DNA of 64,000 nt from Dehalococcoidia bacterium (GCA_965237935.1 CBDEGW010000004.1:477340-541339), one strand, 5' to 3'; counted from the stretch's first letter, positions 2,932-31,598 are shown. The notes: generated by a model not told the origin, from the letters alone. Translations and numbers: made by a program.

Positions 2932-3759
2932 TTAGGCCGCCGCGGACTCGGCAGGCGCTCTGTCAAAGAACTGGTCCGGCGTCATTCCCCCAAGGCTCGA
3001 ATGGGGCCGTCCGGCATTGTAAAACTCGAAGTACCGCCCGAGTCCAGTTCTGGCTTCCGGGACCGATTCGTAGGCTCTCAGGTACACCTCCTCGTACTTG
3101 ACGCTCTTCCACAGTCGTTCGACGAACACGTTATCCTTCCAGCTCCCCTTCCCGTCCATACTGATCTGGATCTCACTGGCTTTCAGCAGGCCGGTGAAGG
3201 CATCACTTGTGAACTGGCTTCCCTGATCTGTGTTGAATATCTCCGGCGCGCCGTGGCGTCCCAGGGATTCTTCGAGCGCCTCCACGCAGAAGTCTGTGTC
3301 CATTGTGACCGATACCCGCCAGGCCAGCACCTTGCGGCTATGCCAGTCCATCACTGCGGCTAGGTACACGAACCCCCTGGCCATCGGAATGTACGTGATA
3401 TCCATTGCCCACACCTGGTTGGGCCTGCTCACCTCAAGCCCACGCAGCAGGTACGGATACACCGTATGGCCGGGCCGTCGCCGGCTGGTGTTGGGCTTGC
3501 GGTACAGCGCCTCGATGCCCATCCGCCGCATCAGTGTGGCGATGTGTCTACGCCCGGAGGAGAGTCCCTCCTGGCGGAGCAGGCCTCGCATCATCCTACT
3601 GCCTGCAAACGGATACTCAAGGTGCAGCTCATCGATGCGGCGCATCAGTCCGAGACCGGCTTCGCCCACCGACCGTGGCCGGTAGTAGATGCTCCCGCGG
3701 CTGATGCCCACTGCCTTTGCCTGGCTGGCGAGAGGCAGCTTGTGATCGCGGTCGATCAT
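2932..3759 (-). CDS. IS3 transposase OrfB (rve/DDE integrase core)
   Basis: [31 protein letters not shown] motifs. Confidence 0.95.
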   Translation of the reverse strand: MIDRDHKLPLASQAKAVGISRGSIYYRPRSVGEAGLGLMRRIDELHLEYPFAGSRMMRGLLRQEGLSSGRRHIATLMRRMGIEALYRKPNTSRRRPGHTVYPYLLRGLEVSRPNQVWAMDITYIPMARGFVYLAAVMDWHSRKVLAWRVSVTMDTDFCVEALEESLGRHGAPEIFNTDQGSQFTSDAFTGLLKASEIQISMDGKGSWKDNVFVERLWKSVKYEEVYLRAYESVPEARTGLGRYFEFYNAGRPHSSLGGMTPDQFFDRAPAESAAA

Positions 3760-5827: not shown

Positions 5828-5916
5828 TGAGGTGGTACCCAAAAACTAGACAACTGGCTAAGAGAGAGTCCAGCTCCTAAAATAACCGGCAACTAACCGA
5901 CGTGGAGGAGCAGGAC

Positions 5917-6201
5917 ATGAAGCAGACGAGGAATAAGCACAGTCCGGCGTTCAAGGCCAAGGTGGCCCTGGCCGCCCTTGCGGGGGAAGAGACCATCGCC
6001 CAGCTGGCCAGCCGATTTGAGGTCCATCCCAGTCAGATTCACGCCTGGAAAAGGGCCCTGGTGGAAGGAGCCCCGGAGCTATTTGCCACCAATCAGAAAT
6101 CCCAGGAGAAAGCCAAGGAAGCTCAGATTAACCACCTCTACCGGCACATCGGCCAGCTGAAGGTGGAACGCGATTTTTTGTCGGAAAGGTCCGGTCTATG
6201 A
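5917..6201 (+). CDS. IS3 transposase OrfA
   Basis: [31 protein letters not shown]...ERDFL; T6 run near the junction. Confidence 0.93.
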
Positions 6202-7133
6202 GTCGCAGCATACGGCGAGCCATGATAGACCGAGACCACCAGCAGCTGTCTTTGGTGCGTCAATGTATCCTGCTGGACGTCAGCCGGGCCTCGGTGTACT
6301 ACCGGCCGGTACCGACCAGGGCAGAAGACCTGGAGTTGATGGCCCTGATGGACCGTCAGTATTTGAAGACCCCCTTCTACGGCTCCAGGAAGATGAAGGC
6401 CTGGCTGCTGCAACAGGGCTATCTGGTGAGCCGAAAAAGGGTTCGAAGGCTGATGCGGTTGATGGGTCTGGAAGCGATCTACCGGCGTCCCAACACCAGC
6501 AAACCAGCGCCGGGACACCGGATCTTTCCCTATCTGCTGAAGGGAGTGGAGGTTAATCGGGTCGACCAGGTCTGGGCCGCGGACATCACCTACATCCCCA
6601 TGGCGAAGGGCTTCCTGTACCTGGTGGCCATCATGGACTGGCACAGCCGGCACGTGCTGGCCTGGAAGCTCTCCAACACCATGGACACCAGCTTCTGCGT
6701 GGCGGCGTTGGAGGAAGCCCTGGGTAAGGGACGACCGGAGATATTCAACACCGACCAAGGGAGTCAGTTCACCAGTGAGGCCTTTACCCAGACGTTGCAG
6801 GAGCAGAGGGTCCAGGTCAGCATGGATGGTAAGGGTAGGTACCTGGACAACATCTTCGTGGAGCGGCTGTGGCGGAGCATCAAGTACGAGGAGGTGTATC
6901 TGAAAGCTTACCAGACCGTCGCCGAGGCCCGAACTGGGATCAATGCCTACCTGGAGTTCTACAACCGGCAGAGGCCTCACCAGGCTTTGGGCTACCGGAC
7001 CCCAGCAGAGGTGTACCAACATGGCCAGGAAGAAAGGGGAGCAGCAGCTGAAGAAGCAGGGCTGCCATCGGGCTTGGTGAAACCTAGCGCAGGGGTGGGA
7101 GACTCTCTTAATTTAGCCCTCGTGCTGTCTTAA
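6198..7133 (+). CDS. IS3 transposase OrfB
   Basis: [31 protein letters not shown]. Confidence 0.95.
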
Positions 7134-8546: not shown

Positions 8547-8851
8547 GGTTGCCCCTAGTGGCACCTGAAACAGCTCGATTCCCTCAAGTCTCATACTTTC
8601 ATCACGGCCGAACTAGCTGGCACCGCTGGTAATGCACACGCCACGGTCAACCACACCCTGACGGACCGGTCGGCTGTCGGTATCGGCGGACGGGTAAGCC
8701 ACGGTACCCCCCAACTGTCGTTGGGAGGAATGGCTACTAGCTTTGACAGCAGACTCGCGTGCTCATCATATAGCAGAATTCCCAGTGGCCGTCGGTCCCT
8801 CGCTCTTGCTCTTACTGTCTGACATCATCTTGAACTAATCCCTAATAGTAC

Positions 8852-8880
8852 TTGACATTGTCATCTTCCTATGCTATGGT
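8852..8880 (+). promoter_or_regulatory. sigma70-type promoter of the QueC operon, with an overlapping palindrome
   Basis: TTGACA (8852-8857), 17-bp spacer, TATGGT (8875-8880); palindrome TGACA-T-TGTCA at 8853-8863; RBS GGGAGG upstream of ATG 8902. Confidence 0.65.
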
Positions 8881-8901
8881 GCTGAATGGGAGGGCTACAC
8901 A

Positions 8902-9539
8902 ATGCCAGACTTAGACCGCTTCGAGAGAACCTTCCAAGTCGGAGGATGGCGAGGTGCCTACCGGCTGGCCCGAGAAAGGGTCGCCTCTACGGAGGAGGTC
9001 GGCGACAAGCTGGTGAAATCTCTCGCCAAGACCCTACGCGCAAACGGGGGTGTACCCGAACTACCAGCAATGGCTGAAATCGTCGAATCGTCAAACGGGA
9101 CTTCGCTTCTGGAGCGGTTCAGTGCCTGGATGCCATCGTACGGGCTCAAGATGGACATCGCCCTACCAAAATCGCTGCTGGCGTTGCGAAGACCTTCCTC
9201 GTCCAGCAGGATGCGGCTAACGGAGGGTCCGTACCCAGCAATGCAGTTAGTCGATTTGGCGAGGAGGTATGTGCTGCCCTCGTGGAGCACTACTTCTTTG
9301 CCAACGCGCGCCAACACCTGATTACCCAGGACAGGTTGGCGAACCATGAAGAGGCCCGACGGTGGCAGGGCGAGGTGGAACAAGCCATCCGGCCGGACAT
9401 TGAGAAGGTCGCTCGCCAGCTTGTTCAGGACCCTGGCGCCAACTACCTGCGGGCTCCAAAGGGCATCGTGAAGAAGGAGTCTACCAGCACTCTTCTCGAA
9501 GAAGAGTTGGTCCACTCCCGGCCTGGGGTGCCAGCGTGA
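8902..9539 (+). pseudogene. hypothetical QueC-partner protein (about 212 aa), broken by a 1-bp frameshift near 9125
   Basis: Frame 1 reads MPDLDRF...LLERFSA; the second frame is open from 9078 to 9539 (LDAIVRAQDGH...PGVPA). Adding one C at GCC|TGGAT fuses them (SALDAIVR). The stop overlaps the GTG start of the QueC gene (GTGA). Confidence 0.7.
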
Positions 9540-10909
9540 CGGCTACGCACTACTCCTATGACTTCGCTGACCAAGTTCAGCCGGTGGAGCTCGACAGCCA
9601 CTACTGGCTGAACGGTCAGCGTTTGTCGCGAGCGTTCTGCCGGGCGCTTAGTGCCAGCTTGGCGGACCTGCTGGACGTAGTCATGGCTGTGTATGCCGCC
9701 GATCGTCGTTCACCGCGCAACTTCAAGGGAGCAGCGGCCGGACATCGGCGTATCAGCGTTCGGATTGGAGTGAGGAATCCCGGACTCTGGTCAGCTGCGG
9801 AGATGGTTGAGAGACTCCAGGATCTGTTGTACTGGCTGAGTGAGGATGAATGGTCCCTTCATTTCGTGCAGCGCCTAGCGGCTCCCTCAGCCGCAGAATC
9901 GGAAAACTTTCTATTCCAAATGGCACCCAGAGAGCCCGTCACGGTGTCCCTGTTCAGCGGCGGCCTTGATTCCCTTGCCGGTTTGGCCTCGCACGCTCTG
10001 GAAGGTTCCGGAGGATCGCGTGTCTTGGTCTCTGGCTATACCAACAACCGGTTGAGGCATCAGCAACGGTCGCAAGTCGATCTCGTTAGGGCCGCATGGG
10101 GACACGCCGAGGCGTTCGAGCACAGCCCTGAAGTGCACCATATAGCCGTCCCCTTCGGCATCCGCAAGCCAATCGGACATCAGGAGGAGAATAGCCAGCG
10201 GACGCGCTCACTTGTATTCCTTACTCTCGGCGTGGTCACGGCGCTGCAAGGAGGCGCCGATACGCTATGGGTCTATGAGAACGGAGTTGGGGCGCTGAAT
10301 CTCCCGATGAATGAAACCCAACTTGGGATGGACAACTCTAGAGGGGTCCACCCACGCTCCCTGGTGCTGGCCGAAGATCTTATTAGTATGGCGCTGGAGC
10401 AATCTGTCCGGATAAGGAACCCCTTCCTGTTCAGCACGAAGGCTCAAATGTGCAAGGCTCTGACCAATAGCGGGTTTGCGGACGCGGTGAGCTATACCGT
10501 CTCTTGTGATGGCTTCCCGCAAAGAATGCACAACCAACCGTCTCAGTGTGGTCGTTGCACTTCCTGCATACTCCGCCGGCAGTCCCTACAAGCCAGTGGC
10601 TTGGCACGGCATGACCAAGGTTACCGCTACGACGTGCTCAGGCCCCAAACGATTAGAGACGAGTGTCATCTGTACGACTTCGAAGCTATGCGTGGCCAAG
10701 TGCACAAGATCGGCCGCTGCCTTGCTACAGAAGACCCTTGGCGCTCGTTGTGCGCTTCGTTTCCTGAACTGGCGAGAACGCATGCGGAGCTTGTGGTACG
10801 CGAAGGGCTTGGGGACCGAACGTATATCGGCGACCGTATGGTCGACTTGTATCGGGGCTATGCCTGGGAGTGGGGGTGGTCCATAGAGTCACTCATCAAA
10901 GCGGCATAG
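9536..10909 (+). CDS. long QueC-family (7-cyano-7-deazaguanine synthase-like) protein, QatC/Cap9-like
   Basis: PP-loop SLFSGGLDS, QRTRSLVFL, YENGVGALNLP, NPFLFSTKAQM, Zn site SC...CGRCTSC; 457 aa with an N-terminal extension of ~135 aa, about twice the size of housekeeping QueC. Confidence 0.9.
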   Translation: MTATHYSYDFADQVQPVELDSHYWLNGQRLSRAFCRALSASLADLLDVVMAVYAADRRSPRNFKGAAAGHRRISVRIGVRNPGLWSAAEMVERLQDLLYWLSEDEWSLHFVQRLAAPSAAESENFLFQMAPREPVTVSLFSGGLDSLAGLASHALEGSGGSRVLVSGYTNNRLRHQQRSQVDLVRAAWGHAEAFEHSPEVHHIAVPFGIRKPIGHQEENSQRTRSLVFLTLGVVTALQGGADTLWVYENGVGALNLPMNETQLGMDNSRGVHPRSLVLAEDLISMALEQSVRIRNPFLFSTKAQMCKALTNSGFADAVSYTVSCDGFPQRMHNQPSQCGRCTSCILRRQSLQASGLARHDQGYRYDVLRPQTIRDECHLYDFEAMRGQVHKIGRCLATEDPWRSLCASFPELARTHAELVVREGLGDRTYIGDRMVDLYRGYAWEWGWSIESLIKAA

Positions 10910-10917
10910 GGGGGGCC

Positions 10918-12147
10918 ATGCAACAACATGCGATTGAGACCACTGACCCAAGGGATCTGGGACGACGTCTCCAGGAAGCTAGGAAAGCCCGAGGCTTTAC
11001 TCAGCAAGAGGTCGCTGAGTCCTTGGCAGTTGCCCGAACGACGGTCACCGCGCTAGAGAAGGGGGAGCGTCGGCCACGGCCTGATGAACTCATACAGATG
11101 GCGCGGCTCTACGGTCGTCAGGTGGGTGATTTTGTTGGTCAGAGGGAGCCCATAGCGGACTTCACGGTGCAATTCCGCACGGCACTCAGAGGACTAGGTT
11201 CCGCAGGTGCTCAAAAGGAGCTGGGTGTGGCAGTCCAGGAATTCCAGAGGCTGTGCGAAGACTATCTGTACCTTGAGAATCTGAACGGCGCACCACTTCG
11301 ACAAGACTATCCCCTCCAATACTCCATTGAGGGAACCACTCCCGAGGATGCCGCTGAGGACGTGGCCTCGTCCGAGCGCAACCGGCTGGGCCTCGGCGAC
11401 GGCCCAGTTCTGCGTTTGAGAGAGACGCTTGAGAGCGATGTGGGTATTCGTGTTTTCTCCATCGAACTGCCTTCCAAAGTCGCAGGCATCTTCTCCTACA
11501 CAGAGGAGCTGGGCGGCTGCATTGCTGTGAACGCTCGACACCCCGAAGAGAGGCGAAGGTGGTCAATGGCTCATGAATACGGCCATTTCCTGACGCGGCG
11601 ATACCAGTCAGAGGTATCCCTGCTGGGCATTTACAGCCGTGTTCCTGCTGCCGAGAGGTTCGCCGACGCCTTCGCTTGCTCTATGCTGATGCCATCTGTC
11701 GGTCTTCGGCGGAGGTTCAATGACCTATCCCGCGCGGTGGACGGTAGGGTCACCGTAGCGGATGTATGCCGGCTCGCTCACTACTACTTCGTCTCCGTGG
11801 AAGCGATGATGCTTCGTTTGGAGGACCTCCGTCTTCTTCCTGGAGGCACCTGGGATAGGCTACGGGATAGGGGCTTCAAGGTCAGGGAGGCCCAGGCGGA
11901 ACTGGGTTTGTCTCCTCGTTCTTCTGACGACAGAGTCCTCCCACTTCGCTATCAACTCTTGGCCGTTCGGGCCTATGAGGAAGGGAGCCTTACCGAGGGC
12001 GAATTGGCTCGGCTTCTGCGGGTTGACCGAGTGTCGGCGAGACGGATAGTCCAGGAACTAACCCATCCTATTCACCTACTTAGTGAAGGCGAGGTCGGTT
12101 CACTCCCCGTTGATCTTGCCAGCAGCATTAGCGGACAACACCCGTGA
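10918..12147 (+). CDS. XRE-family HTH fused to ImmA/IrrE (DUF955) Zn-metallopeptidase
   Basis: LGRRLQEARKARGFTQQEVAESLAVARTTVTALEKGERRP HTH; HEYGH zincin motif; ERFADAFA; ATG 9 bp after the QueC stop. Confidence 0.92.
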   Translation: MQQHAIETTDPRDLGRRLQEARKARGFTQQEVAESLAVARTTVTALEKGERRPRPDELIQMARLYGRQVGDFVGQREPIADFTVQFRTALRGLGSAGAQKELGVAVQEFQRLCEDYLYLENLNGAPLRQDYPLQYSIEGTTPEDAAEDVASSERNRLGLGDGPVLRLRETLESDVGIRVFSIELPSKVAGIFSYTEELGGCIAVNARHPEERRRWSMAHEYGHFLTRRYQSEVSLLGIYSRVPAAERFADAFACSMLMPSVGLRRRFNDLSRAVDGRVTVADVCRLAHYYFVSVEAMMLRLEDLRLLPGGTWDRLRDRGFKVREAQAELGLSPRSSDDRVLPLRYQLLAVRAYEEGSLTEGELARLLRVDRVSARRIVQELTHPIHLLSEGEVGSLPVDLASSISGQHP

Positions 12148-12162
12148 TGAGGGCCGACCACC

Positions 12163-12732
12163 GTGACGAATCCTCCACGACCTCTTCTCCTCGACGCTAG
12201 CTGCCTTCTCAATCTCTACGCAACTGGACGACTGCGGGAGATTGCCGCCGCTCTGCTCTATCAACTTGGCGTGGCCGATTACGTACTTGAACGAGAAGCT
12301 CTTTACACTTGGGTTCCAGACCCTGCCGGGACTGGTGAGCGCAAGGAACCAGTGGACCTTTCTTCGCTTGTGCGTGAGGGACTGTTTCACGTGTTGCGGT
12401 TAGAACACTCAGAGGAAGAAGTCACCTTTGTGGACCTTGCCGCCTCGATTGACGACGGGGAGGCAATAACAGGCGCCCTTGCCTTCCACCGCGGTTGCTC
12501 AGTGGCCACCGATGATCGCAAGGCGCACCGCGTTCTTCAGGAGCAGGTTCCCACAGTGCCATTAGTATCTACTCTTGAACTCCTCAAGCTATGGGCCGAG
12601 GAGGCCTCAATTCCAGATACTGAATTGCAAGCCGCAATGATGTCGATGAAGTCATGGGCCAGTTACATACCTGGAGACCGTGACCCTCTTTATGTGTGGT
12701 GGCAAGAGATCATGCACGGCAGTGCGTCCTAA
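12163..12732 (+). CDS. PIN-domain protein (putative RNase)
   Basis: LLLDASCLLNL, DDGEAIT, ATDDRKA PIN acidic motifs; starts 15 bp after the peptidase gene. Confidence 0.8.
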   Translation: MTNPPRPLLLDASCLLNLYATGRLREIAAALLYQLGVADYVLEREALYTWVPDPAGTGERKEPVDLSSLVREGLFHVLRLEHSEEEVTFVDLAASIDDGEAITGALAFHRGCSVATDDRKAHRVLQEQVPTVPLVSTLELLKLWAEEASIPDTELQAAMMSMKSWASYIPGDRDPLYVWWQEIMHGSAS

Positions 12733-12922
12733 CTCAGAATCCTCCCCGTGCATGTCCGAGTGAGAAGAACCCACACGGTTTGCTCCCACTAGTCGTCGAC
12801 CGTTTCAACTGTTGTTTTCACCGGCGACATGGCTCTCGCACCAACCAGCAGGGGCGGTGGAAACCCTTCGAGGCAGGTCCTAGAACCTTCGAACTTTCCT
12901 CTACGTTGTTCAGGGCAACCTT

Positions 12923-13083
12923 GATTCCCTCGCAAAAACCCGTTTTGAGGAAGTTCCAGCGATTTAGCACATCTGAGCGCTACCGTATGTTGGGGTAGCA
13001 TACGGAACAGAGACTGTATATTGTACCCAGGTGTGGGTACGTTTGTTCTAATTCGGCCTGCACAGACTTTTTACGAGAGAATC
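12923..13083 (+). mobile_element. 161-bp MITE, copy 1
   Basis: TIR GATTCCCTCGCAAAAA / TTTTTACGAGAGAATC; 6-bp direct repeat AACCTT (12917-12922 and 13084-13089); near-identical to 30431-30591 inverted. Confidence 0.9.
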
Positions 13084-13242
13084 AACCTTGCGCTTCCCCA
13101 GTCGCGCTCCGGCCGCACAGCACCAGGAATCCCTCGCCCCTACCACAAAACGACTTCGTATACAAGGGCTTGCAAGGCCTTACCCTGGACGAATTTCCCG
13201 TTCAAAATGAGATGTTGGGCCATTGCCGACTGGAGCAGTTGA

Positions 13243-13661
13243 TTGGTCGTCGCGGAGCCAAGAACACAACCATTGAACGGCACGACACAGGCCGGACCGG
13301 ACCTCGAGGAGGCGATCCGGGACTACGTGCGTGTCTACGTGTGGCGGCATGGGCGGCGGGAGACAGCCGAGGTCCTCGGCGTGTCCCGCCACACCCTCTG
13401 GCGCTTCCTCGAACGGGGCCACGTGGGGCGTGCCGTGCCCTCCGCCGTCCAGAACGCTGTCGGCGGGAGCGTCACGGCGCTCGAGGCGGCCACGCTGGAA
13501 ATCATCATCGACTTAGAGGGCCTGCGACCGGACCCCGCCCTGCGTCACCTGCGCCAGGGACTTGAGGAGGCGCTCCTGCTGCTCTGCGCATCGCCCCTGG
13601 CCACCGTGGAGGAGCTGTCGCGCTTCGGGCGCGTTCCGGCCTCCACGCTGAGAGAGCGTCT
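13243..13661 (+). pseudogene. truncated HTH-containing mobile-element protein N-terminus
   Basis: RRETAEVLGVSRHTLWRFLERG HTH; a second HTH-like ATVEELSRFGRVPASTLRERL ends abruptly at the recombinase junction. Confidence 0.45.
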
Positions 13662-13721
13662 TGGCAAGACTTATCCACGACGTTGGCCATCAAGCCACGG
13701 ATCTGCTCCAGTTCGGAGCCA

Positions 13722-15181
13722 TCCGCAGGATGATAGACGAGGCCAAAAAGACCAAGGCCCCTTTCAACGAGATACTCGTCTGGAAATTCTCCCGCTTCAC
13801 CCGCAAGCGGGAGCACGCCGTCGCCCTGAAGTCCATGCTCCGGCGCCAGGGCGTCCGCGTCGTCTCCATAACCGAGCAGGCCGAGGACAACCCCACGGGC
13901 AGGCTCCTGGAAGGCATCATCGAGAGCGTGGACGAATTCTACAGCGAAAATCTTGGCCAGGAGGTCGTGCGGGGTATGAGGGAGGCCTCATCCAGGGGAT
14001 TCTGGGTCGCTCCCATGGCCCCCTACGGCTACAAGAGGGTCAAGGTGCTGGACGGGGCCAAGGAGAGGCCCACCCTGGAACCCGACGAGGACGCCGCCCT
14101 TGTCGTCAAGCGCATCTTCGACCTGGCCGAGTCCCGCAAGGGGATGCTGAAGATCGTCCGCATCCTCAACGACGAGGGGATCGCCAGCCCCAGGGGTAAG
14201 CTCTGGAACAAGCCCACCGTCCACAACATCCTCAGAAACGAGGCTTATTTGGGCACACTGGTCTGGGGCAACAACGCCAAGGACAACGCCGACCCGGTGC
14301 GGGTGGAAAAGGCGTTCCCCGCCGTCGTCACCAAGGCCCAGTTTGACCGGGTGAACAGGATAATGCGCTCCCGCGCACCCAAGATCACCCACCCCCGAAG
14401 GGTGGGAAGCTCCTTCCTGCTGAGCGGCCTCATCAAGTGCTACAGGTGCAAGAGGGCGCTCTCGGGCCGCTACTCCAGCAGGGGGACGTTCCCCTACTAT
14501 GTATGCCACTCCTTCGTCAAGCGCGCCCCCGGCGCCTGCGATTCGCCCAGGGTGGACGCCCGCCAATTCGAGGAGCTGGTCGTCAACTCGATTCGCTCCA
14601 ACATCCTCACCGAGGGCAACATTCGGAACCTGGTCAAGGTCGTGGACGAGCAGATGGACGACGTGGCCGGCGAGGAGCGCAAGCGGCTGGAGACCATCGA
14701 GTCGGAGCTTGCCGACGTGCGGGGCAGGCTCGACTGGCTCTACGACCTCGTGGAGACGACGACCGAGTTCAACATGGCCGACTTCGCCCATCGTATCCGA
14801 GACCACAAGGAGCGCCAGCAGCGCCTTGAGTCCGCCGCGGAGGGGGCGAGGGCAATCCTGGCTCAGCGCAGGGCGGTCCTCGACGACGTCAAGACCATCA
14901 CCGCCTACGCCCAGGACATGAACAGGTTCCTGCAAAAGAGCGAGCTGACCGAGCGCAGGGCCTTCATCGAGACCTTCGTCAGGGAGATCGAGCTCCTGCC
15001 CGACAACGCCGTCGTCCGCTACACCATCCCCATTTCTCAATCGACACCAAAAACTGAGCTATTCTTGGGCGGTCGATTTGGACACAACCAAGTAAGGTCA
15101 GGCGGATCGACAGGTGGGCGTGCCACCTCAACCCTGATAGCCGGTTCGATCCCTCACAGATGGGCCCTCCTTGACGGTTAG
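13722..15181 (+). pseudogene. large serine recombinase, 5'-truncated (copy 1)
   Basis: VWKFSRFTR, SVDEFYSENLGQEVVRGM, PYGYK, Zn ribbon CYRC...YYVC, coiled coil; lacks the N-terminal YARVS catalytic serine motif. Confidence 0.85.
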
Positions 15182-18551: not shown

Positions 18552-19924
18552 GAGTAGAGTCCCAGGAAGTGGTGTAAGAGGGAGAGGGTCTGGAGAAAGA
18601 GAGACCACCGAGTCATCCTTAGCGGGCAAAGAAGAAAGCTCGAGAAAGGAGGACAACAGTGGTCAAGGAAAGGATGGACCTGCTGGAGCTATTGCGCAAG
18701 GGGGGAATGGACGGTGACGTGGACTTCCTACGGGAGGCACTGAGAGTGCTGGTAGAGGGGATCATGGATGCGGAGGTGTCATCGAGGATCGGTGCTGAGT
18801 ATGGAGAACGCAGCCCTGAGCGGGTGACCCAGCGCAACGGGTATCGGTCCCGGGCGTGGGATACCCGTGTAGGGACGATGGATCTGCACATCCCGAAGCT
18901 TCGAGAGGGGAGCTACTTCCCGAGCCTGCTGGAGCCACGGCGTCGCAGCGAGCGAGCTCTGCTGGCGGTGATCCAGCAGGCCTACGTGGAAGGTGTATCC
19001 ACAAGGCGGGTGGACGATCTGGTCAAGGCCCTGGGGTGTGAGGGTATCTCCAAGAGCCAGGTGTCGCGCATCTGTCAGGAACTGGACGTGGTGGTGGATG
19101 GTTTCATGGGCCGTCCGCTGGACGGTGGACCCTACCCCTACCTGTGGCTGGACGCACTGACCCAGAAGGTCAGGGAGGCCGGCAGGATCGTCAACGTCAG
19201 CGTGGTGGTGGCGACGGCGGTCAATGGCGAGGGCAAGCGGGAGATCATCGGGATGGACGTGGGTACGAGTGAAGACGGCGCCTTCTGGCTGGCCTTCCTA
19301 CGCTCGCTGTCCGCCAGGGGCCTCGGCGGGGTGGAACTGGTGGTATCGGACGCTCATCAGGGACTCCGAGGCGCCATCGCCGCAGTCTTCGGCGGAGCCA
19401 GCTGGCAACGGTGCCGCACCCACTTCATGACCAACCTGCTCACTCGGGTCCCCAGGCGCGCCCAGCCATGGGTAGCCACCATGGTGCGCACCATCTACCA
19501 GCAACCCTCCCCCGATGAGGTACACGCCCAACTCGACAGGGTGACCGATCAACTCCAGAACCGGTTCCCTCAGGTCGCCTCTCTACTGGACGAGGCCGGA
19601 CCCGACATCCTGGCCTTCTCCAACTTCCCACTCGCCCACTGGAAGAAGATCTGGTCCAACAACCCACAGGAGCGTCTCAACAAGGAGATCCGGCGACGCA
19701 CCGATGTGGTGGGCATCTTCCCTAACCGGCCGGCCGTGCGCCGCCTCGTTGGCGCCGTCCTGGCTGAGCAGCACGACGAATGGGCCGTTGGCCGTCGATA
19801 TCTCACACCTGTCGTGCTGACCTTCAACGAAGCTCTTCCAGAGGCCGATCTCGCGGAGGGGACAGCCGCCTAAACAACATCAACAGGATGACGCACTCTT
19901 ACACCACTTGACGGGACGTGACCC
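18552..19924 (+). mobile_element. IS256-family element
   Basis: 29-bp imperfect IRs ending AAGTGGTGTAAGAG; flanks ATGCCGTC and CCCTGTAG do not match, so no target duplication. Confidence 0.9.
18659..19873 (+). CDS. IS256 (mutator-family) transposase
   Basis: RNGYRSR, GVSTRRV, YLWLDA, SDAHQGL, WQRCRTHF, SNNPQERLNKEIRRR. Confidence 0.96.
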   Translation: MVKERMDLLELLRKGGMDGDVDFLREALRVLVEGIMDAEVSSRIGAEYGERSPERVTQRNGYRSRAWDTRVGTMDLHIPKLREGSYFPSLLEPRRRSERALLAVIQQAYVEGVSTRRVDDLVKALGCEGISKSQVSRICQELDVVVDGFMGRPLDGGPYPYLWLDALTQKVREAGRIVNVSVVVATAVNGEGKREIIGMDVGTSEDGAFWLAFLRSLSARGLGGVELVVSDAHQGLRGAIAAVFGGASWQRCRTHFMTNLLTRVPRRAQPWVATMVRTIYQQPSPDEVHAQLDRVTDQLQNRFPQVASLLDEAGPDILAFSNFPLAHWKKIWSNNPQERLNKEIRRRTDVVGIFPNRPAVRRLVGAVLAEQHDEWAVGRRYLTPVVLTFNEALPEADLAEGTAA

Positions 19925-25555: not shown

Positions 25556-26695
25556 CTCGCCCAGGAGGTCCTGCGGGGGATGCGGGAGTCCGCCTCTCGC
25601 GGCTTCTGGATCGGCAGCAGGAAGCCCTACGGATACAACAGGGTCATGGTGCAGGATGGGGCGAAGAAGAGGCCCACATTGGAACTCGACCCGGACACGT
25701 CTCCCGTGGTCGAGCGCATCTTCGACATGGCACAGGCCGGAAAGGGGATGCTGCCCATCGCTGAGACCCTCAACGACGAGGGTGTCGCCAGCCCCGCAGG
25801 CAAGCTCTGGTCCAAGAACACCGTCCACTTCATCCTCAAGAACGAGGTCTACACGGGCACGCTGATCTGGGGCGCCAAGTCTAAGGACAAGGCAGAGCCG
25901 GTGCGGGTGGAGAAGGCGTTTCCTGCCATCGTCTCCAAGACCCGCTTCCGCCGGGTCAACAGCCTGATGCGCTCCCGCGCACCCAAGATCGCCCACCCTC
26001 GGAGAGTCGCAAGCTCCTACCTGCTCAGCGGACTCGTCAAGTGCAAGGCCTGCAACAGGGCGCTGAGCGGACAGGACGCCAAGAGCGGGCAGTTCTCCTA
26101 CTACGTCTGCCAGTCGATCATGAAGCGCGGCAAGGATGCCTGCAAGACTCCCAGGCTCAACGCCCGCCGCTTCGAGGAGATGGTCGTGGGCAAGATTCGC
26201 TCTAACGTCCTCACCGATGGCAACATCCGCGCCCTGGTGAAGGTAGTCGACGAGCAGATGGACGGCGTGGCCCAAGAGCAGCGGACGAAGCTAGAGACCA
26301 TCGAGGATGAGCTTGAGGACGTGAAGCGGAAGCTGGGCCGCATCTGGCACTTCATAGAGACAGCCGACAACGTCGAGATGACCGACGCCTCAGACCGCAT
26401 CAGGGAGCACAGGGACCGCCAGGAGCCCCTGGAGGACTTGGCGGCCGAGGCCAGGGCCATCCTCTCGCAGCGCAGGGCCGACCTGGACGACGTGGAGACC
26501 ATCGCGGCCTACGCCCAGGACATGAGCGAGTTTCTGAAGGAGAGCGAGCTGACCGAGCGCAGGGCCTTCATCGAAACCTTCGTCAAGGAGATCGTCGTGA
26601 TGTCCGGCGACGCCCTACTGCGCTACACCATCCCCATTTCTCAATCGACACAAAAAACTGAGCTACTCTTGGGCGGTCGACCTGAAGAGTTCTAG
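25556..26695 (+). pseudogene. large serine recombinase, 5'-truncated (copy 2)
   Basis: Starts at (N)LAQEVLRGMRE; KPYGY, CKAC...YYVC Zn ribbon; entire catalytic domain missing. Confidence 0.88.
26642..26679. repeat. 38-bp inverted repeat, right arm (also at 15038-15075)
   Basis: CAATCGACACAAAAAACTGAGCTACTCTTGGGCGGTCG; 26621-26680 matches 15017-15076 at 58/60. Confidence 0.85.
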
Positions 26696-30142: not shown

Positions 30143-31598
30143 CTACCTGGGCGTCCCCAGGGCGTACTTTACCGTGCCGCTGAGGGGGCCCTTACTAGAG
30201 ACCTCGAAGTAGGCGATGTGAGGCCGGCCCTGGGAGTCGAGCTTCAGGGACACCAACTGCCCAAGGGTCTTGGAGCCCGCGTCCACAACGCTATCGATCT
30301 TCCAGTCGGAGCCGTCCCAGACGGCCAGGTTCAGCCGCTTTTCGTCAGAGTAGGCAATCCAGGGATTGCCCTCGCCATCCAGGGCCAAAGACGTAATGTT
30401 CCTTGCGCCAACGAACCCGAAGGCAAGCTTGATTCTCTCGTAAAAAGTCTGTGCAGGCCGAATTAGAACAAACGTACCCGCGCCTGGGTACAATATACAG
30501 TCTCTGTTCCGTATACTAGCCCAACATACGGTAGCGCTCAGATGTGCTGAATCGCTGGAACTTCCTCAAAACGGGTTTTTACGAGGGAATCAAGCTTGCT
30601 CAGAGTATCCACGTCGCGTATCTCCCAGGTGGGCTCATCAGGGCCCCTGGTAGCGTACTTGACCACGCCGGATGAGGGGACTCCTTGAGGAAATAGCTGA
30701 TGTGAAAGCGGCCACCCTGGTCTATCACCAGCGAGGAGAATAACCCCGTGTCGCCGTCGTCGTCCACGGTGTCGAAGATCCATCCAGAGTCGTCTCTGCT
30801 GGCCAGGGTCAGGCTCTGGTCTTTCTGATCGAAGTAGGAGATGTGCGGGCTACCATCGGGATCGATGGCGATGGAAGTAGCGTACTTATAGGTTATGGGT
30901 CCGGTGCCTATGGTCTCCACGGTCCAATTTCCCGCGTCGTCCTGACCGTAGTACTCGACGCCTTTACCTCCGAATTCCTCAGGGTCTATGGCACTCATGT
31001 GGGGCCGGCCCTGGGCATCAGTGGTTATCCGGTTGTCCCATCCATCGTGACCCTGATCAAACACAGCCTCAACGTCCCATCCGCCATCATTCAGGACAGC
31101 GTAGATAGCATCGCCCTTGGCCGGTCTGAACTGCTGGGCGTCCTGGTGGTCGTGATACGAAATGTGGGCGACGTCATCTGGGCCGATGGCTATGTCCAGG
31201 GGTCCGTAAAAGTTACCTTCGGCAACGGTGGTGACGTCCCATGTCGAGCCGTTGCGCACCGCGTTCTTCACGAATCCAGGCATGGCCTCCAGCATATAGG
31301 CGATGTAGGCAACGTCGCCGCTGGTCAGGGCCAGGGCAGGCTTCGTACCTGCGTCAACGTCCTCTATCTCCCATGAGAAGGCTCCCTCTTCTTGAGCGCC
31401 ATCGTCGGCTGGAGGCTGGGGAATCGCCGTCGGCGTGGGCTGAGCCGGAAGGGGAGTCGGGGCCGCTGCTGCTGGCGGGGTAGTAGGCTGTGGGGCCGGC
31501 GTAGGAGTGGAGGCTGCACCGCCGCACGCCATAGCGACAACGGCCACGAACACGCCTAGCAGCGAAATGACGTATCGGCTGTGGTCAGGAAACCTCAT
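30143..31598 (-). pseudogene. beta-propeller-like repeat lipoprotein, disrupted by a frameshift (~30678) and a MITE
   Basis: Lipobox AMAC; repeated W.IE.VD / SLA(L/I)D..G.PHI(S/A)Y units; frameshift in the G4 run 30676-30679; removing the MITE and one AAGCTT restores TLSKLAFGFVG. Confidence 0.8.
30431..30591 (-). mobile_element. 161-bp MITE, copy 2
   Basis: TIRs as copy 1; 6-bp duplication AAGCTT (30425-30430 and 30592-30597). Confidence 0.92.

What the first reader, a model, noticed from the sequence alone, without database searches (positions are those of the whole stretch)
8852..12732. Candidate undescribed QueC-based defence operon: partner protein + QatC/Cap9-like QueC + XRE-IrrE peptidase + PIN nuclease
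Seen: four co-oriented genes behind one consensus sigma70 promoter, tightly coupled (GTGA overlap, 8-bp gap, 15-bp gap). The QueC protein is 457 aa with an intact PP-loop and Zn site. The block sits among restriction-enzyme fragments, ISs and recombinase relics. Known: long QueC proteins act in QatABCD (with QatA ATPase, QatB, TatD) and in type IV CBASS (Cap9, with CD-NTase and TGT-like genes), where they are reported to attach a deazaguanine base to the N-terminal Gly of a partner; HTH plus IrrE-type peptidases (CapH/CapP logic) regulate defence operons. None of QatA, TatD, CD-NTase, TGT/Dpd or queDEF is present here, and the partner begins MPD, not MG. Inference: a distinct system in which QueC modifies the small partner (or another substrate), the XRE-peptidase senses damage and the PIN RNase is the effector.
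Basis: partly seen in the sequence, partly recalled or inferred. Interest (0 to 1): 0.9.

Follow-up and report, generated by a model that had tools for sequence, protein, structure and literature searches.

The report
Qat-like enzyme pair joined to protease-gated PIN toxin
This is a real four-gene cassette, conserved across at least eight bacterial phyla and on plasmids, that joins a Qat-type protein-modifying enzyme and its partner to a repressor-protease-antitoxin protein and a PIN nuclease; the combination is not covered by the defence-gene models or papers I could search, and is probably an undescribed anti-phage or toxin-antitoxin-type system.

Summary
Window 8852-12732 carries a promoter and four tightly coupled + strand genes:
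- a 212-aa partner, with one 1-bp homopolymer frameshift that is probably an assembly error;
- a 457-aa QatC-family PP-loop enzyme;
- a 409-aa XRE-HTH/M78 peptidase protein with a UPF0175-like tail;
- a 189-aa PIN nuclease of the COG2405/DUF3368 type.

The juxtaposition is not chance.
- The same gene order recurs in 53-57 species-representative genomes from seven phyla and on 25 alphaproteobacterial plasmids. Co-occurrence on the plasmids is 25/25 in both directions.
- The flanking genes are not conserved.
- The QueC-like proteins of the cassette form one clade, apart from the QatC of qatABCD.

Three features were new to me.
- An 11-bp palindrome, TGACA-N-TGTCA, overlaps the promoter in 34 of 42 loci. 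It occurs once in 843 kb of flanking DNA.
- The partner's N-terminus is M-P-[D/E]-x-D-R-F-E, never the M-G of QatB.
- The enzyme pocket changes with it: QatC's essential TxT becomes [Y/T/S]x[G/A].

Genes 3 and 4 are a known type of pair (Rosmer-like, HTH-DUF955 plus PIN). Genes 1 and 2 are Qat-like. I found the four-gene combination in no model library or paper. The mechanism and the defence role are inferred. I class it as a new variant of a known kind, interest about 0.7.

The parts
8820..8880 (+). Promoter/operator region. It holds an upstream TGACA half-site (8820-8824) with a -10-like TAATAG (8843-8848). The -35 TTGACA lies at 8852-8857. The palindrome TGACATTGTCA (8853-8863) overlaps that -35. 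The TG-extended -10 TATGGT lies at 8875-8880.
   Evidence: The promoter scan scored it 10/12, and the sequence was read directly. The palindrome TGACA(N0-1)TGTCA lies within 150 nt upstream of the partner start in 34/42 orthologous loci. It occurs once in 843 kb elsewhere in those loci and once in the whole 64-kb window, at 8853.
8902..9539 (+). Partner gene, in the QatB position. Orthologues are about 212 aa and all alpha-helical. The N-terminus is M-P-[D/E]-x-D-R-F-E-R. A conserved C-terminal motif reads LRAPxR...T..LL.E.L. In the window a 1-bp deletion at 9125-9126 breaks the frame.
   Evidence: One search shows the single-base gap against L001 and L002, and one search shows the downstream frame is open. 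Intact orthologues precede every QueC-like gene. The AF2 model has pLDDT 83 with nine helices. The family has 520 clusters at 50% identity, and their matches are anchored at residue 1. The gene has no hit in Pfam, NCBIfam, PADLOC or PDB by sequence.
9536..10909 (+). QatC-family QueC-like PP-loop ATPase, 457 aa. It has the N- and C-terminal extensions, an intact SGGLDS loop, a Cys4 Zn site, and the D44, D56 and R61 equivalents of QatC's conserved residues. At the position of QatC's TxT, the pocket reads D-N-S-R-G.
   Evidence: PADLOC QatC scores 9e-52, and NCBIfam QatC scores 191 bits against a cutoff of 280. PDB QatC entries 9vlk and 9zee match at E=3e-34 over residues 43-354. Clade monophyly is shown and residue statistics.
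10918..12147 (+). Three-domain regulator/antitoxin, 409 aa. It has an XRE HTH (about 13-69), a linker, an M78/ImmA-IrrE peptidase (about 174-301, with HEYGH at 219-223), and a UPF0175-like C-terminal domain (about 310-409).
   Evidence: Pfam gives Peptidase_M78 at 2e-17 and HTH_3 at 1e-14. PADLOC gives RmrA at 2e-29, capP at 8e-18 and capH at 9e-9. H219 and H223 are invariant and E220 is at least 80% conserved. Sub-threshold UPF0175 hits occur in 18/27 orthologous tails. This is the most conserved protein of the cassette.
12163..12732 (+). PIN-domain nuclease of the COG2405/DUF3368 type, 189 aa. It is the likely toxin or effector.
   Evidence: AF2 pLDDT is 92.5. Foldseek hits VapC/PIN structures 1y82, 5h4g and 1v96 with probability 1.0 and TM up to 0.70. 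Many orthologues carry a precomputed PF11848 hit.

Best explanation
The cassette is one self-contained, self-repressed mobile operon built from two known kinds of module that have become obligately linked.

**Module 1 (genes 1-2)** is Qat-like. The QatC-family PP-loop enzyme binds the small helical partner. By analogy with Cap9 and QatC, it uses ATP to modify the partner's exposed N-terminus. After Met removal that N-terminus is Pro (sometimes Ala, Val, Ser or Thr), not Gly.

**Module 2 (genes 3-4)** is a Rosmer-type protease-gated toxin-antitoxin pair.
- The XRE domain of gene 3 binds the TGACA-N-TGTCA operator over the promoter and keeps the operon low.
- The UPF0175-like tail of gene 3 holds the COG2405-type PIN nuclease inactive.
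- The M78 peptidase of gene 3 is the switch.

On infection or DNA damage the peptidase is activated, either directly or by the state of the partner/QueC-like complex. It then cleaves the regulator. This derepresses the operon and frees the PIN, which cuts RNA and arrests the cell.

**Shown:** gene content, folds, catalytic residues, strict linkage, the operator, the conserved N-terminus and the co-varying pocket.

**Inferred:** every biochemical step, the order of events and the defence role.
For: - **Strict linkage.** The order partner, QueC-like, XRE-M78, PIN is found in 53-57 of the best 58 genome loci. On plasmids the co-occurrence is 25/25 in both directions.
- **One clade.** All cassette QueC-like proteins form a single NJ clade that excludes the QatC of qatABCD.
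- **Self-contained unit.** No flanking gene is shared by more than 4 of 53 loci. In distant relatives, DNA similarity to the window starts at the partner start codon and ends at the PIN stop.
- **Operator.** The palindrome is present in 34/42 loci, against 1 occurrence in 843 kb elsewhere. Variants occur on alphaproteobacterial plasmids.
- **QatC kinship.** The N-terminal extension and catalytic residues match.
- **Partner N-terminus.** Its most conserved residues are P2 and D5. The second residue permits Met removal in 171/177 representatives; the other six look like start-site miscalls.
- **Pocket covariation.** The pocket is TxT where the partner starts MG (qatABCD 18/19, third class 45/61). 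It is [Y/T/S]x[G/A] where the partner starts MP, MA, MV, MS or MT.
- **Published Qat work.** QatBC alone suffices for defence, and QatB's N-terminal Gly and QatC's T278/T280 are essential (PMC13279940).
- **Gene 3.** The peptidase HExxH is conserved. The tail matches UPF0175 in 18/27 orthologues, and UPF0175 is reported only next to COG2405 PINs (PMC5499597).
- **Genes 3-4 as a known pair.** RmrA-type protease antitoxins and HTH-DUF955+PIN operons are described.
- **Neighbours on plasmids.** They include Shedu, Lit and AbiE genes.
Against:
- Homology of the partner to QatB is not shown. PADLOC QatB gives no hit while a true QatB scores 3e-75. hhalign gives probability 18%. Foldseek places QatB at rank 4 but with E=0.75 and TM 0.20.
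- The partner lacks QatB's long disordered N-terminal tail; a helix starts at residue 3 in the model.
- QatC's own chemistry is unresolved, so 'modification of the N-terminus' is an analogy to an analogy.
- The UPF0175 signal is below Pfam's threshold in every sequence.
- The flanks of the genomic loci are a mixture of mobile-element, restriction-modification and housekeeping genes. They are not clear defence islands.
- Only 1 of 76 viral-collection QatC-like loci carries the cassette.
Confidence: 0.5

Rival explanations
1. Two functionally independent modules travel as one cassette. The partner/QueC-like pair is a minimal Qat-type defence unit acting on its own. The XRE-M78 protein is only its transcriptional switch, following CapH/CapP logic. 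The PIN is an addiction toxin that stabilises the cassette on its replicon. There is no biochemical cross-talk between the pairs.
For: - QatBC alone gives defence in P. aeruginosa (PMC13279940).
- CapH+CapP regulate many unrelated immune operons.
- HTH-DUF955+PIN pairs exist on their own in many genomes.
- 68 further plasmids carry more distant XRE-M78 homologues without the QueC-like gene.
- The operator explains co-regulation without any protein-protein coupling.
Against: - Within this clade the linkage is absolute over very long divergence. At 30-35% QueC identity the order is unchanged.
- Independent modules would be expected to separate or swap partners.
- All four genes are translationally coupled or nearly so.
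Confidence: 0.27
2. The cassette is a stress- or DNA-damage-responsive toxin-antitoxin or regulatory module of mobile elements, with no role in phage defence. It might serve plasmid or ICE maintenance, or growth control.
For: - It sits on conjugative plasmids and next to IS elements and recombinases.
- IrrE and ImmA relatives respond to DNA damage or element induction.
- The genomic flanks are not consistently defence genes.
Against: - Both parent module types (Qat and RosmerTA) are experimentally validated anti-phage systems.
- Plasmid neighbours include Shedu, Lit and AbiE.
- An ATP-dependent QatC-family enzyme with a dedicated partner is hard to explain in a plain addiction module.
Confidence: 0.13
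3. The QueC-like enzyme makes or installs a 7-deazaguanine derivative on nucleic acid or as a free small molecule. The 'partner' is a scaffold or immunity factor rather than the substrate.
For: - It belongs to the QueC superfamily, with an intact PP-loop and Zn site.
- RefSeq annotates the plasmid copies as 7-cyano-7-deazaguanine synthase.
Against: - TIGR00364 QueC scores 25 bits against a cutoff of 150.
- The canonical YxD deazaguanine-recognition residues are not kept.
- No TGT, DpdA or queDEF gene is conserved nearby.
- QatC does not complement a queC deletion (PMC13329287).
- The partner's conserved N-terminus covaries with the pocket.
Confidence: 0.05

Closest known systems
qatABCD anti-phage system (QatB-QatC core)
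   Same: - Gene 2 is a QatC-family enzyme: PADLOC QatC 9e-52, PDB QatC E=3e-34 including the QatC-specific N-terminal extension, and the D63, D75 and R80 equivalents are kept.
- A small all-helical partner is encoded immediately upstream with overlapping stop and start.
- The partner has a strongly conserved extreme N-terminus.
   Different: - There is no QatA (KAP NTPase) and no QatD (TatD).
- The partner is not recognisably QatB.
- It starts MP[D/E]xD rather than MGTS and lacks the 30-90-aa disordered tail.
- QatC's essential T278/T280 are replaced by [Y/T/S] and [G/A].
- The protein falls below the NCBIfam QatC cutoff.
- It forms a separate clade.
RosmerTA / HTH-DUF955 (COG2856) + PIN 'three-component' toxin-antitoxin systems
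   Same: - Gene 3 matches RmrA models (2e-29) with an HTH plus a conserved HExxH peptidase.
- Gene 4 is a PIN of the COG2405/DUF3368 type, exactly the pairing described by Matelska et al. 2017 and Makarova et al. 2009.
   Different: - The pair is always preceded by two extra genes in the same operon.
- The PIN hits no PADLOC RmrT model.
- Gene 3 has an added UPF0175-like C-terminal domain.
Type IV CBASS Cap9 (QueC-like) deazaguanylation of the CD-NTase N-terminus
   Same: A QueC-superfamily enzyme is paired with a protein whose free N-terminus is the likely acceptor. The chemistry is ATP-dependent.
   Different: - Cap9 is about 185 aa and keeps the canonical YxD pocket.
- The cassette has no CD-NTase and no Cap10/TGT.
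- The acceptor residue is not Gly.
CapH/CapP (and ImmR/ImmA, DdrO/IrrE) repressor-peptidase switches
   Same: An XRE repressor plus an M78 peptidase sit at the head of an immune operon, and an operator overlaps the promoter. capP and capH models hit gene 3.
   Different: - Here the two are fused in one polypeptide.
- No GAF domain was detected; CapP's cysteine switch was not examined.
- A third domain and a cognate PIN toxin are present.

Membership tests
qatABCD | QatC: QueC-like PP-loop enzyme with N- and C-terminal extensions | tested here: inconclusive
   The family-level match is strong: PADLOC 9e-52 and PDB QatC 3e-34. However, the NCBIfam equivalog scores 191 against a cutoff of 280, the protein lies in a separate clade, and the essential TxT is not kept.
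qatABCD | QatB partner with conserved MGTS N-terminus and long disordered tail | tested here: not met
   PADLOC QatB gives no hit, while the control QatB from L068 scores 3e-75. hhalign probability is 18%. The N-terminus is MP[D/E]xD. A helix starts at residue 3.
qatABCD | QatA (KAP-family NTPase) in the operon | tested here: not met
   tblastn with QatA from L068 finds it next to classic QatC loci only. No flank gene is conserved in cassette loci.
qatABCD | QatD (TatD-family nuclease) in the operon | tested here: not met
   The same test as for QatA applies. The downstream genes are XRE-M78 and PIN instead.
Type IV CBASS | CD-NTase plus short Cap9 plus TGT-like Cap10 | tested here: not met
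   No such genes lie in the window block or in conserved flanks. The enzyme is 457 aa and of the QatC type.
RosmerTA | RmrA: HTH plus ImmA/IrrE zinc peptidase antitoxin | tested here: met
   Fifteen PADLOC RmrA models hit, the best at 2e-29 over residues 16-308. HExxH is conserved.
RosmerTA | RmrT toxin adjacent, in a two-gene system | tested here: inconclusive
   The adjacent gene is a PIN-fold protein, but it hits no PADLOC model. The unit always has four genes. PIN partners of ImmA-type antitoxins are noted in PMC10440598.
HTH-DUF955 + COG2405 PIN three-component TA (Matelska 2017) | HTH and DUF955 peptidase co-transcribed with a COG2405/DUF3368 PIN | tested here: met
   The domains are shown. 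The PIN fold is shown and PF11848 on orthologues. The gap of 15 bp and the conserved order are.
Canonical QueC (preQ0 synthase) | Equivalog-level match and YxD (YPDC) substrate motif | tested here: not met
   TIGR00364 scores 25 bits against a cutoff of 150. Pfam QueC covers only residues 279-353. The pocket reads D-N-[Y/S/T]-R-[G/A].
CapH/CapP | Separate HTH repressor and peptidase-GAF protein with a cysteine switch | tested here: not met
   The protein is a single fused polypeptide. No GAF domain was detected, and the C-terminal domain is UPF0175-like. The peptidase domain does hit the capP model at 8e-18.

The most novel reading that the evidence does not exclude
A QatC-family enzyme has been re-tuned to modify an N-terminal proline, or the adjacent acidic P-[D/E]-x-D motif, of a dedicated partner protein. 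Its pocket has changed from TxT to [Y/T/S]x[G/A]. The modified or unmodified state of that partner is the signal that fires an M78 peptidase, which releases a tethered PIN toxin. This would be a protein-modification-based immune trigger distinct from both Qat and CBASS deazaguanylation.
Probability: 0.22. Interest if true: 0.85.

Novelty: new variant of a known kind. Interest (0 to 1): 0.7.

Why it matters
QueC-family protein modification is a very recent discovery (Cap9 in 2025, QatBC structures in 2026), and QatC's actual reaction is still unknown.

This cassette is a third, widespread context for that enzyme family. The partner family has 520 clusters at 50% identity, and the cassette occurs in eight phyla and on conjugative plasmids of Rhizobium and Agrobacterium.

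Two natural 'experiments' come with it. The acceptor N-terminus has changed from Gly to Pro together with the pocket residues that are essential in QatC. The QatA/QatD accessory genes have been swapped for a protease-gated PIN toxin.

Comparing the three classes gives direct, testable constraints on what the enzyme recognises and on how a Qat-type core is wired to an effector. It also supplies a conserved operator for studying how such operons are switched on.

Practically, current annotation calls these genes 'hypothetical protein', '7-cyano-7-deazaguanine synthase' and 'XRE regulator'. As a result the system is invisible to the defence models I could test.

Tried and rejected
**1. Partner is QatB.** Not demonstrated.
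- A profile search against PDB sequences found only designed helical repeats.
- Foldseek gave no hit at E<=0.001; QatB 9y01_A came at rank 4 with E=0.75 and TM 0.20.
- hhalign against a QatB alignment gave probability 18%.
- PADLOC QatB gave no hit, with a positive control that worked.

**2. PIN by sequence.** Pfam, NCBIfam and PADLOC gave nothing for the window protein, and a PDB profile search gave nothing. Only 6/37 orthologues had weak Pfam PIN hits. The question was settled by fold instead.

**3. Operator by tool.** The inverted-repeat tool found nothing in the window's upstream region at seed 6. The 11-bp palindrome was found by reading aligned upstream regions and by a regex count.

**4. 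Chance juxtaposition.** Rejected.

**5. Extra conserved genes beside the four.** None were found.

**6. Phage-borne cassette.** Only 1 of 76 IMG/VR QatC-like loci carries it.

**7. 'Restriction-enzyme fragments' upstream.** No support.

**8. Defence-island enrichment of genomic flanks.** A Pfam survey of 120 flanking ORFs gave a mixed picture of transposases, integrases, type I R-M S subunits and housekeeping genes. I had no control set, so I do not lean on it.

**9. Real pseudogene.** Rejected as the likelier reading, because an independent contig of the same allele is shifted at a different homopolymer. QueC-like genes in L029, L033, L036 and L042 are similarly split.

**10. tRNA or Rfam elements in the window.** None.

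**11. Literature.** Searches combining QueC/QatC with PIN, ImmA, IrrE, Rosmer, CapP or M78 found no paper describing the combination. Subscription-only papers are not covered.

Full report
**What is in the window**

Between 8852 and 12732 on the + strand there is a sigma-70-type promoter. It reads TTGACA, 17 nt, then TG-extended TATGGT, scoring 10 of 12. Four genes follow it.

- The partner gene starts at 8902 behind a GGGAGGG Shine-Dalgarno sequence. It ends at 9539, overlapping the GTG start of the next gene by GTGA.
- The QueC-like gene (9536-10909, 457 aa) is followed after 8 bp by a 409-aa gene (10918-12147).
- After a further 15 bp comes a 189-aa gene (12163-12732).

The partner reading frame is split in the window (8902-9321 and 9282-9539). 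Alignment with the two closest relatives shows a single missing C in a CCC run at 9125-9126. The downstream frame is open to the stop.

A separate public contig carries the same allele, with its first 75 residues and its out-of-frame tail identical. That contig has the C-run intact and is shifted about 16 codons later (P0177). Several related assemblies have split QueC-like genes. I therefore read the frameshift as a long-read homopolymer error, not as gene decay.

**What the four proteins are**

Gene 2 hits the PADLOC QatC model at 9e-52. It hits the NCBIfam QatC equivalog at 191 bits, below the cutoff of 280. Canonical QueC is hit only weakly.

A profile of the family matches the solved QatC structures 9vlk and 9zee at E=3e-34 over residues 43-354. 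That stretch includes the QatC-specific N-terminal extension. The PP-loop, the four Zn cysteines, the RR pair and the equivalents of QatC D63, D75 and R80 are invariant.

Gene 3 has an XRE HTH domain and a Peptidase_M78 (ImmA/IrrE) domain. It matches 15 RmrA (Rosmer antitoxin) models, as well as capP and capH. H219 and H223 of its HExxH are invariant, and E220 is at least 80% conserved.

Its last 100 or so residues give sub-threshold but consistent UPF0175 hits in 18 of 27 orthologues.

Gene 4 has no sequence-library hit. Even so, it folds confidently (pLDDT 92.5) into a PIN domain whose best structural matches are all VapC-type toxins. It keeps invariant D11, D98, E100, D117 and D118. Its orthologues carry PF11848/DUF3368, which is the COG2405 PIN family.

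Matelska et al. report that UPF0175 occurs only next to COG2405 PINs. They also report that HTH-DUF955 genes are co-transcribed with COG2405 PINs as a predicted three-component TA (PMC5499597). Makarova et al. 2009 and Ernits et al. 2023 describe the same logic.

Gene 1 has no hit anywhere by sequence. It is predicted to be an all-helical protein of nine helices, with two long C-terminal ones (pLDDT 83).

**Is the arrangement more than chance?**

A scan of one genome per species (GTDB) with a profile of the QueC-like protein returned 80 loci. In 53-57 of the best 58, the same four genes follow each other in the same order with the same tight spacing. This holds down to about 31% QueC identity.

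The organisms belong to seven phyla:
- Chloroflexota (Dehalococcoidia, Caldilineaceae, Tepidiformaceae);
- Acidobacteriota;
- Verrucomicrobiota;
- Actinomycetota (Nonomuraea, Propionicicella, Micropruina, Solirubrobacterales);
- Gemmatimonadota;
- Deferribacteres;
- Myxococcota (Sorangium).

The window itself is most like Dehalococcoidia MAGs (91% identity).

No flanking gene is shared by more than 4 of the 53 loci. In all but the closest relatives, DNA similarity to the window begins at the partner's start codon and ends at the PIN stop.

The cassette also occurs on alphaproteobacterial plasmids of Agrobacterium, Rhizobium, Sinorhizobium, Labrenzia, Methylocystis and Roseomonas. There its neighbours include Shedu, Lit and AbiE genes.

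tblastn with the plasmid QueC-like protein and with the plasmid XRE-M78 protein each returned the same 25 records, at adjacent coordinates.

In a neighbour-joining tree of 146 QatC-like proteins, all cassette proteins fall into one clade of 58 leaves. The two leaves without the full context are a contig end (L069) and a copy disrupted by an IS (L020). All qatABCD proteins lie outside the clade.

**A conserved operator**

Aligning the upstream regions revealed the palindrome TGACA-N-TGTCA. It usually lies 41-54 nt before the partner start codon, with a further TGACA about 30 nt upstream and a -10-like box between them.

The palindrome is present within 150 nt upstream in 34 of 42 loci. It occurs once in the remaining 843 kb of those loci, and once in the 64-kb window, at 8853, where it overlaps the -35 hexamer. 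Variants (TTGACATGTCA, TTGACTTTGTCA) sit at the same place on the plasmids.

The only well-conserved DNA-binding domain in the cassette is the XRE domain of gene 3, which is also the most conserved protein. I infer that the whole four-gene operon is autorepressed. Binding has not been shown.

**The partner's N-terminus and the enzyme pocket change together**

Across 177 full-length cluster representatives the partner begins M(174)-P(142)/A/S/V/T-[D/E](160)-x-D(159)-R-F-E-R. The six exceptions look like start-site miscalls. Profile hits are anchored at residue 1 of the protein.

Every second residue is one that permits Met removal (established MetAP specificity, from my own knowledge). A free Pro, or Ala, Val, Ser or Thr, is therefore exposed.

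In qatABCD loci from the same scan the gene in this position begins MGTSSSY. In a third class it begins MGH-x-RLG-x-LP.

Gao, Wassarman and Kranzusch showed two things. QatB's N-terminal Gly motif is essential. QatC's invariant T278 and T280 stand where QueC and Cap9 have the deazaguanine-binding Tyr and Asp, and they are also essential (PMC13279940).

At the equivalent columns the pattern divides cleanly:
- qatABCD proteins have TxT in 19 of 19;
- the third class has T/S-x-T;
- the cassette clade has Y(32)/T(11)/S(9)-R-G(35)/A(16), preceded by D-N.

The class-level correspondence between Thr at position 270 and a Gly N-terminus, and between Gly/Ala at 270 and a Pro-type N-terminus, has no exception in my sample.

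This is the strongest indirect evidence that the partner's N-terminus sits in the active site. It also suggests that the acceptor, the adduct or both differ from Qat.

**What I could not establish**

- Homology of the partner to QatB.
- Any physical interaction; no co-fold was possible.
- The reaction catalysed. QatC's own reaction is unresolved.
- The trigger of the peptidase.
- A defence phenotype.

Genomic flanks are a mixture of transposases, integrases, type I R-M specificity subunits and ordinary metabolic genes. The cassette is rare in the viral collection, at 1 of 76 QatC-like loci.

**Most likely mechanism, with steps marked**

Shown:
- four co-transcribed genes;
- strict linkage;
- intact catalytic sites in all three enzymes;
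- the operator;
- the conserved N-terminus and the co-varying pocket.

Inferred:
1. The XRE domain represses the operon at the palindrome.
2. The UPF0175-like tail of gene 3 neutralises the PIN.
3. The QueC-like enzyme binds the partner and modifies its N-terminus with ATP.
4. A signal of infection or DNA damage activates the M78 peptidase. The signal might be sensed directly, as in CapP/IrrE/ImmA, or through the partner/enzyme complex.
5. Cleavage of gene 3 derepresses the operon and frees the PIN, which degrades RNA.

The main rival is that the two halves are biochemically independent and merely co-regulated.

**Comparison and novelty**

The cassette works like a Qat core wired to a Rosmer-type protease-antitoxin/PIN pair.
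- It is not a member of qatABCD: QatA, QatB and QatD are not met, and QatC is met only at family level.
- It is not type IV CBASS.
- Genes 3-4 on their own do meet the published description of HTH-DUF955+COG2405-PIN systems.

I found the four-gene combination in neither PADLOC v2.0.0, NCBIfam nor Pfam.

I also did not find it in the four 2026 Qat/QueC papers. One of them notes that only about a third of QatC-cluster genes sit next to qatA or qatD, and leaves the rest undescribed.

Full-text searches for the combination also found nothing. I could not run the current DefenseFinder, and I cannot see subscription-only literature.

Verdict: a real, widespread, apparently undescribed variant of a known kind. 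Interest 0.7.

Noticed in passing
window 12917-13091 (+) and 30424-30598 (-); L009 18245-18419: A repeat of about 175 bp with sharp ends and terminal inverted repeats (CTTGATTCCCTCGTAAAAA ... TTTTTACGAGAGAATCAAG). The L009 copy is about 92% identical to each of the two window copies. It looks like a MITE. One copy lies 185 nt after the PIN stop and contains the predicted terminator hairpin at 13022-13041. It has no tRNA or Rfam match.
   Followed up: partly
L062, L066, L074, L085-L153 (mostly IMG/VR contigs): A third class of QatC-like loci. The partner is about 260 aa and begins MGH[I/T/V]RLGxLP[R/K]T. The QatC-like protein keeps the [T/S]xT pocket but is often 600-800 aa, with an extra C-terminal region that has no Pfam hit. 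Primase/helicase genes (DUF3987, D5_N, Toprim) follow, which suggests a mobile-element-borne Qat-like pair with no qatA or qatD.
   Followed up: partly
L020 11896-13587; L015 8396-10001: In two related genomes the cassette is interrupted by insertions. L020 has about 1.7 kb inside the XRE-M78 gene. L015 has about 1.5 kb between the partner and the QueC-like gene, containing a 408-aa ORF. These are natural knock-outs, and they suggest the cassette can be lost without killing the host.
   Followed up: no
L081-L083 (alphaproteobacterial plasmids), QueC-like genes: In the plasmid versions the PP-loop reads S-[N/D/E]-G-L-D-S instead of SGGLDS; the first Gly is replaced. The partner begins M-[S/T]-D-G-P. 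It is unclear whether ATP binding is retained.
   Followed up: no
window 13243-15181 and 25580-26695: Two large-serine-recombinase genes or relics. The first lacks the first 50 or so residues of the resolvase domain, and an ORF in another frame overlaps its start (13243-14199). The second has no resolvase domain at all. With IS3-family (2932-3759, 5902-7133) and IS256-family (18659-19873) transposases, this marks the region as a graveyard of mobile elements. Some breaks may be assembly frameshifts.
   Followed up: partly
PDB 9vzy_A compared with window 10918-12147: A solved 393-aa 'HTH cro/C1-type domain-containing protein' aligns with the peptidase region of gene 3 (residues 188-330, E=6e-5). 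It may be the closest structure of a fused XRE-M78 protein. I did not identify what system it comes from.
   Followed up: no
L001 14657-16609 (-) and one other cassette flank: ThiF-family (E1-like) proteins appear in two flanks of cassette loci, DUF6361 proteins in two, and type I R-M specificity subunits in three. These are possible neighbouring defence genes and were not examined further.
   Followed up: no
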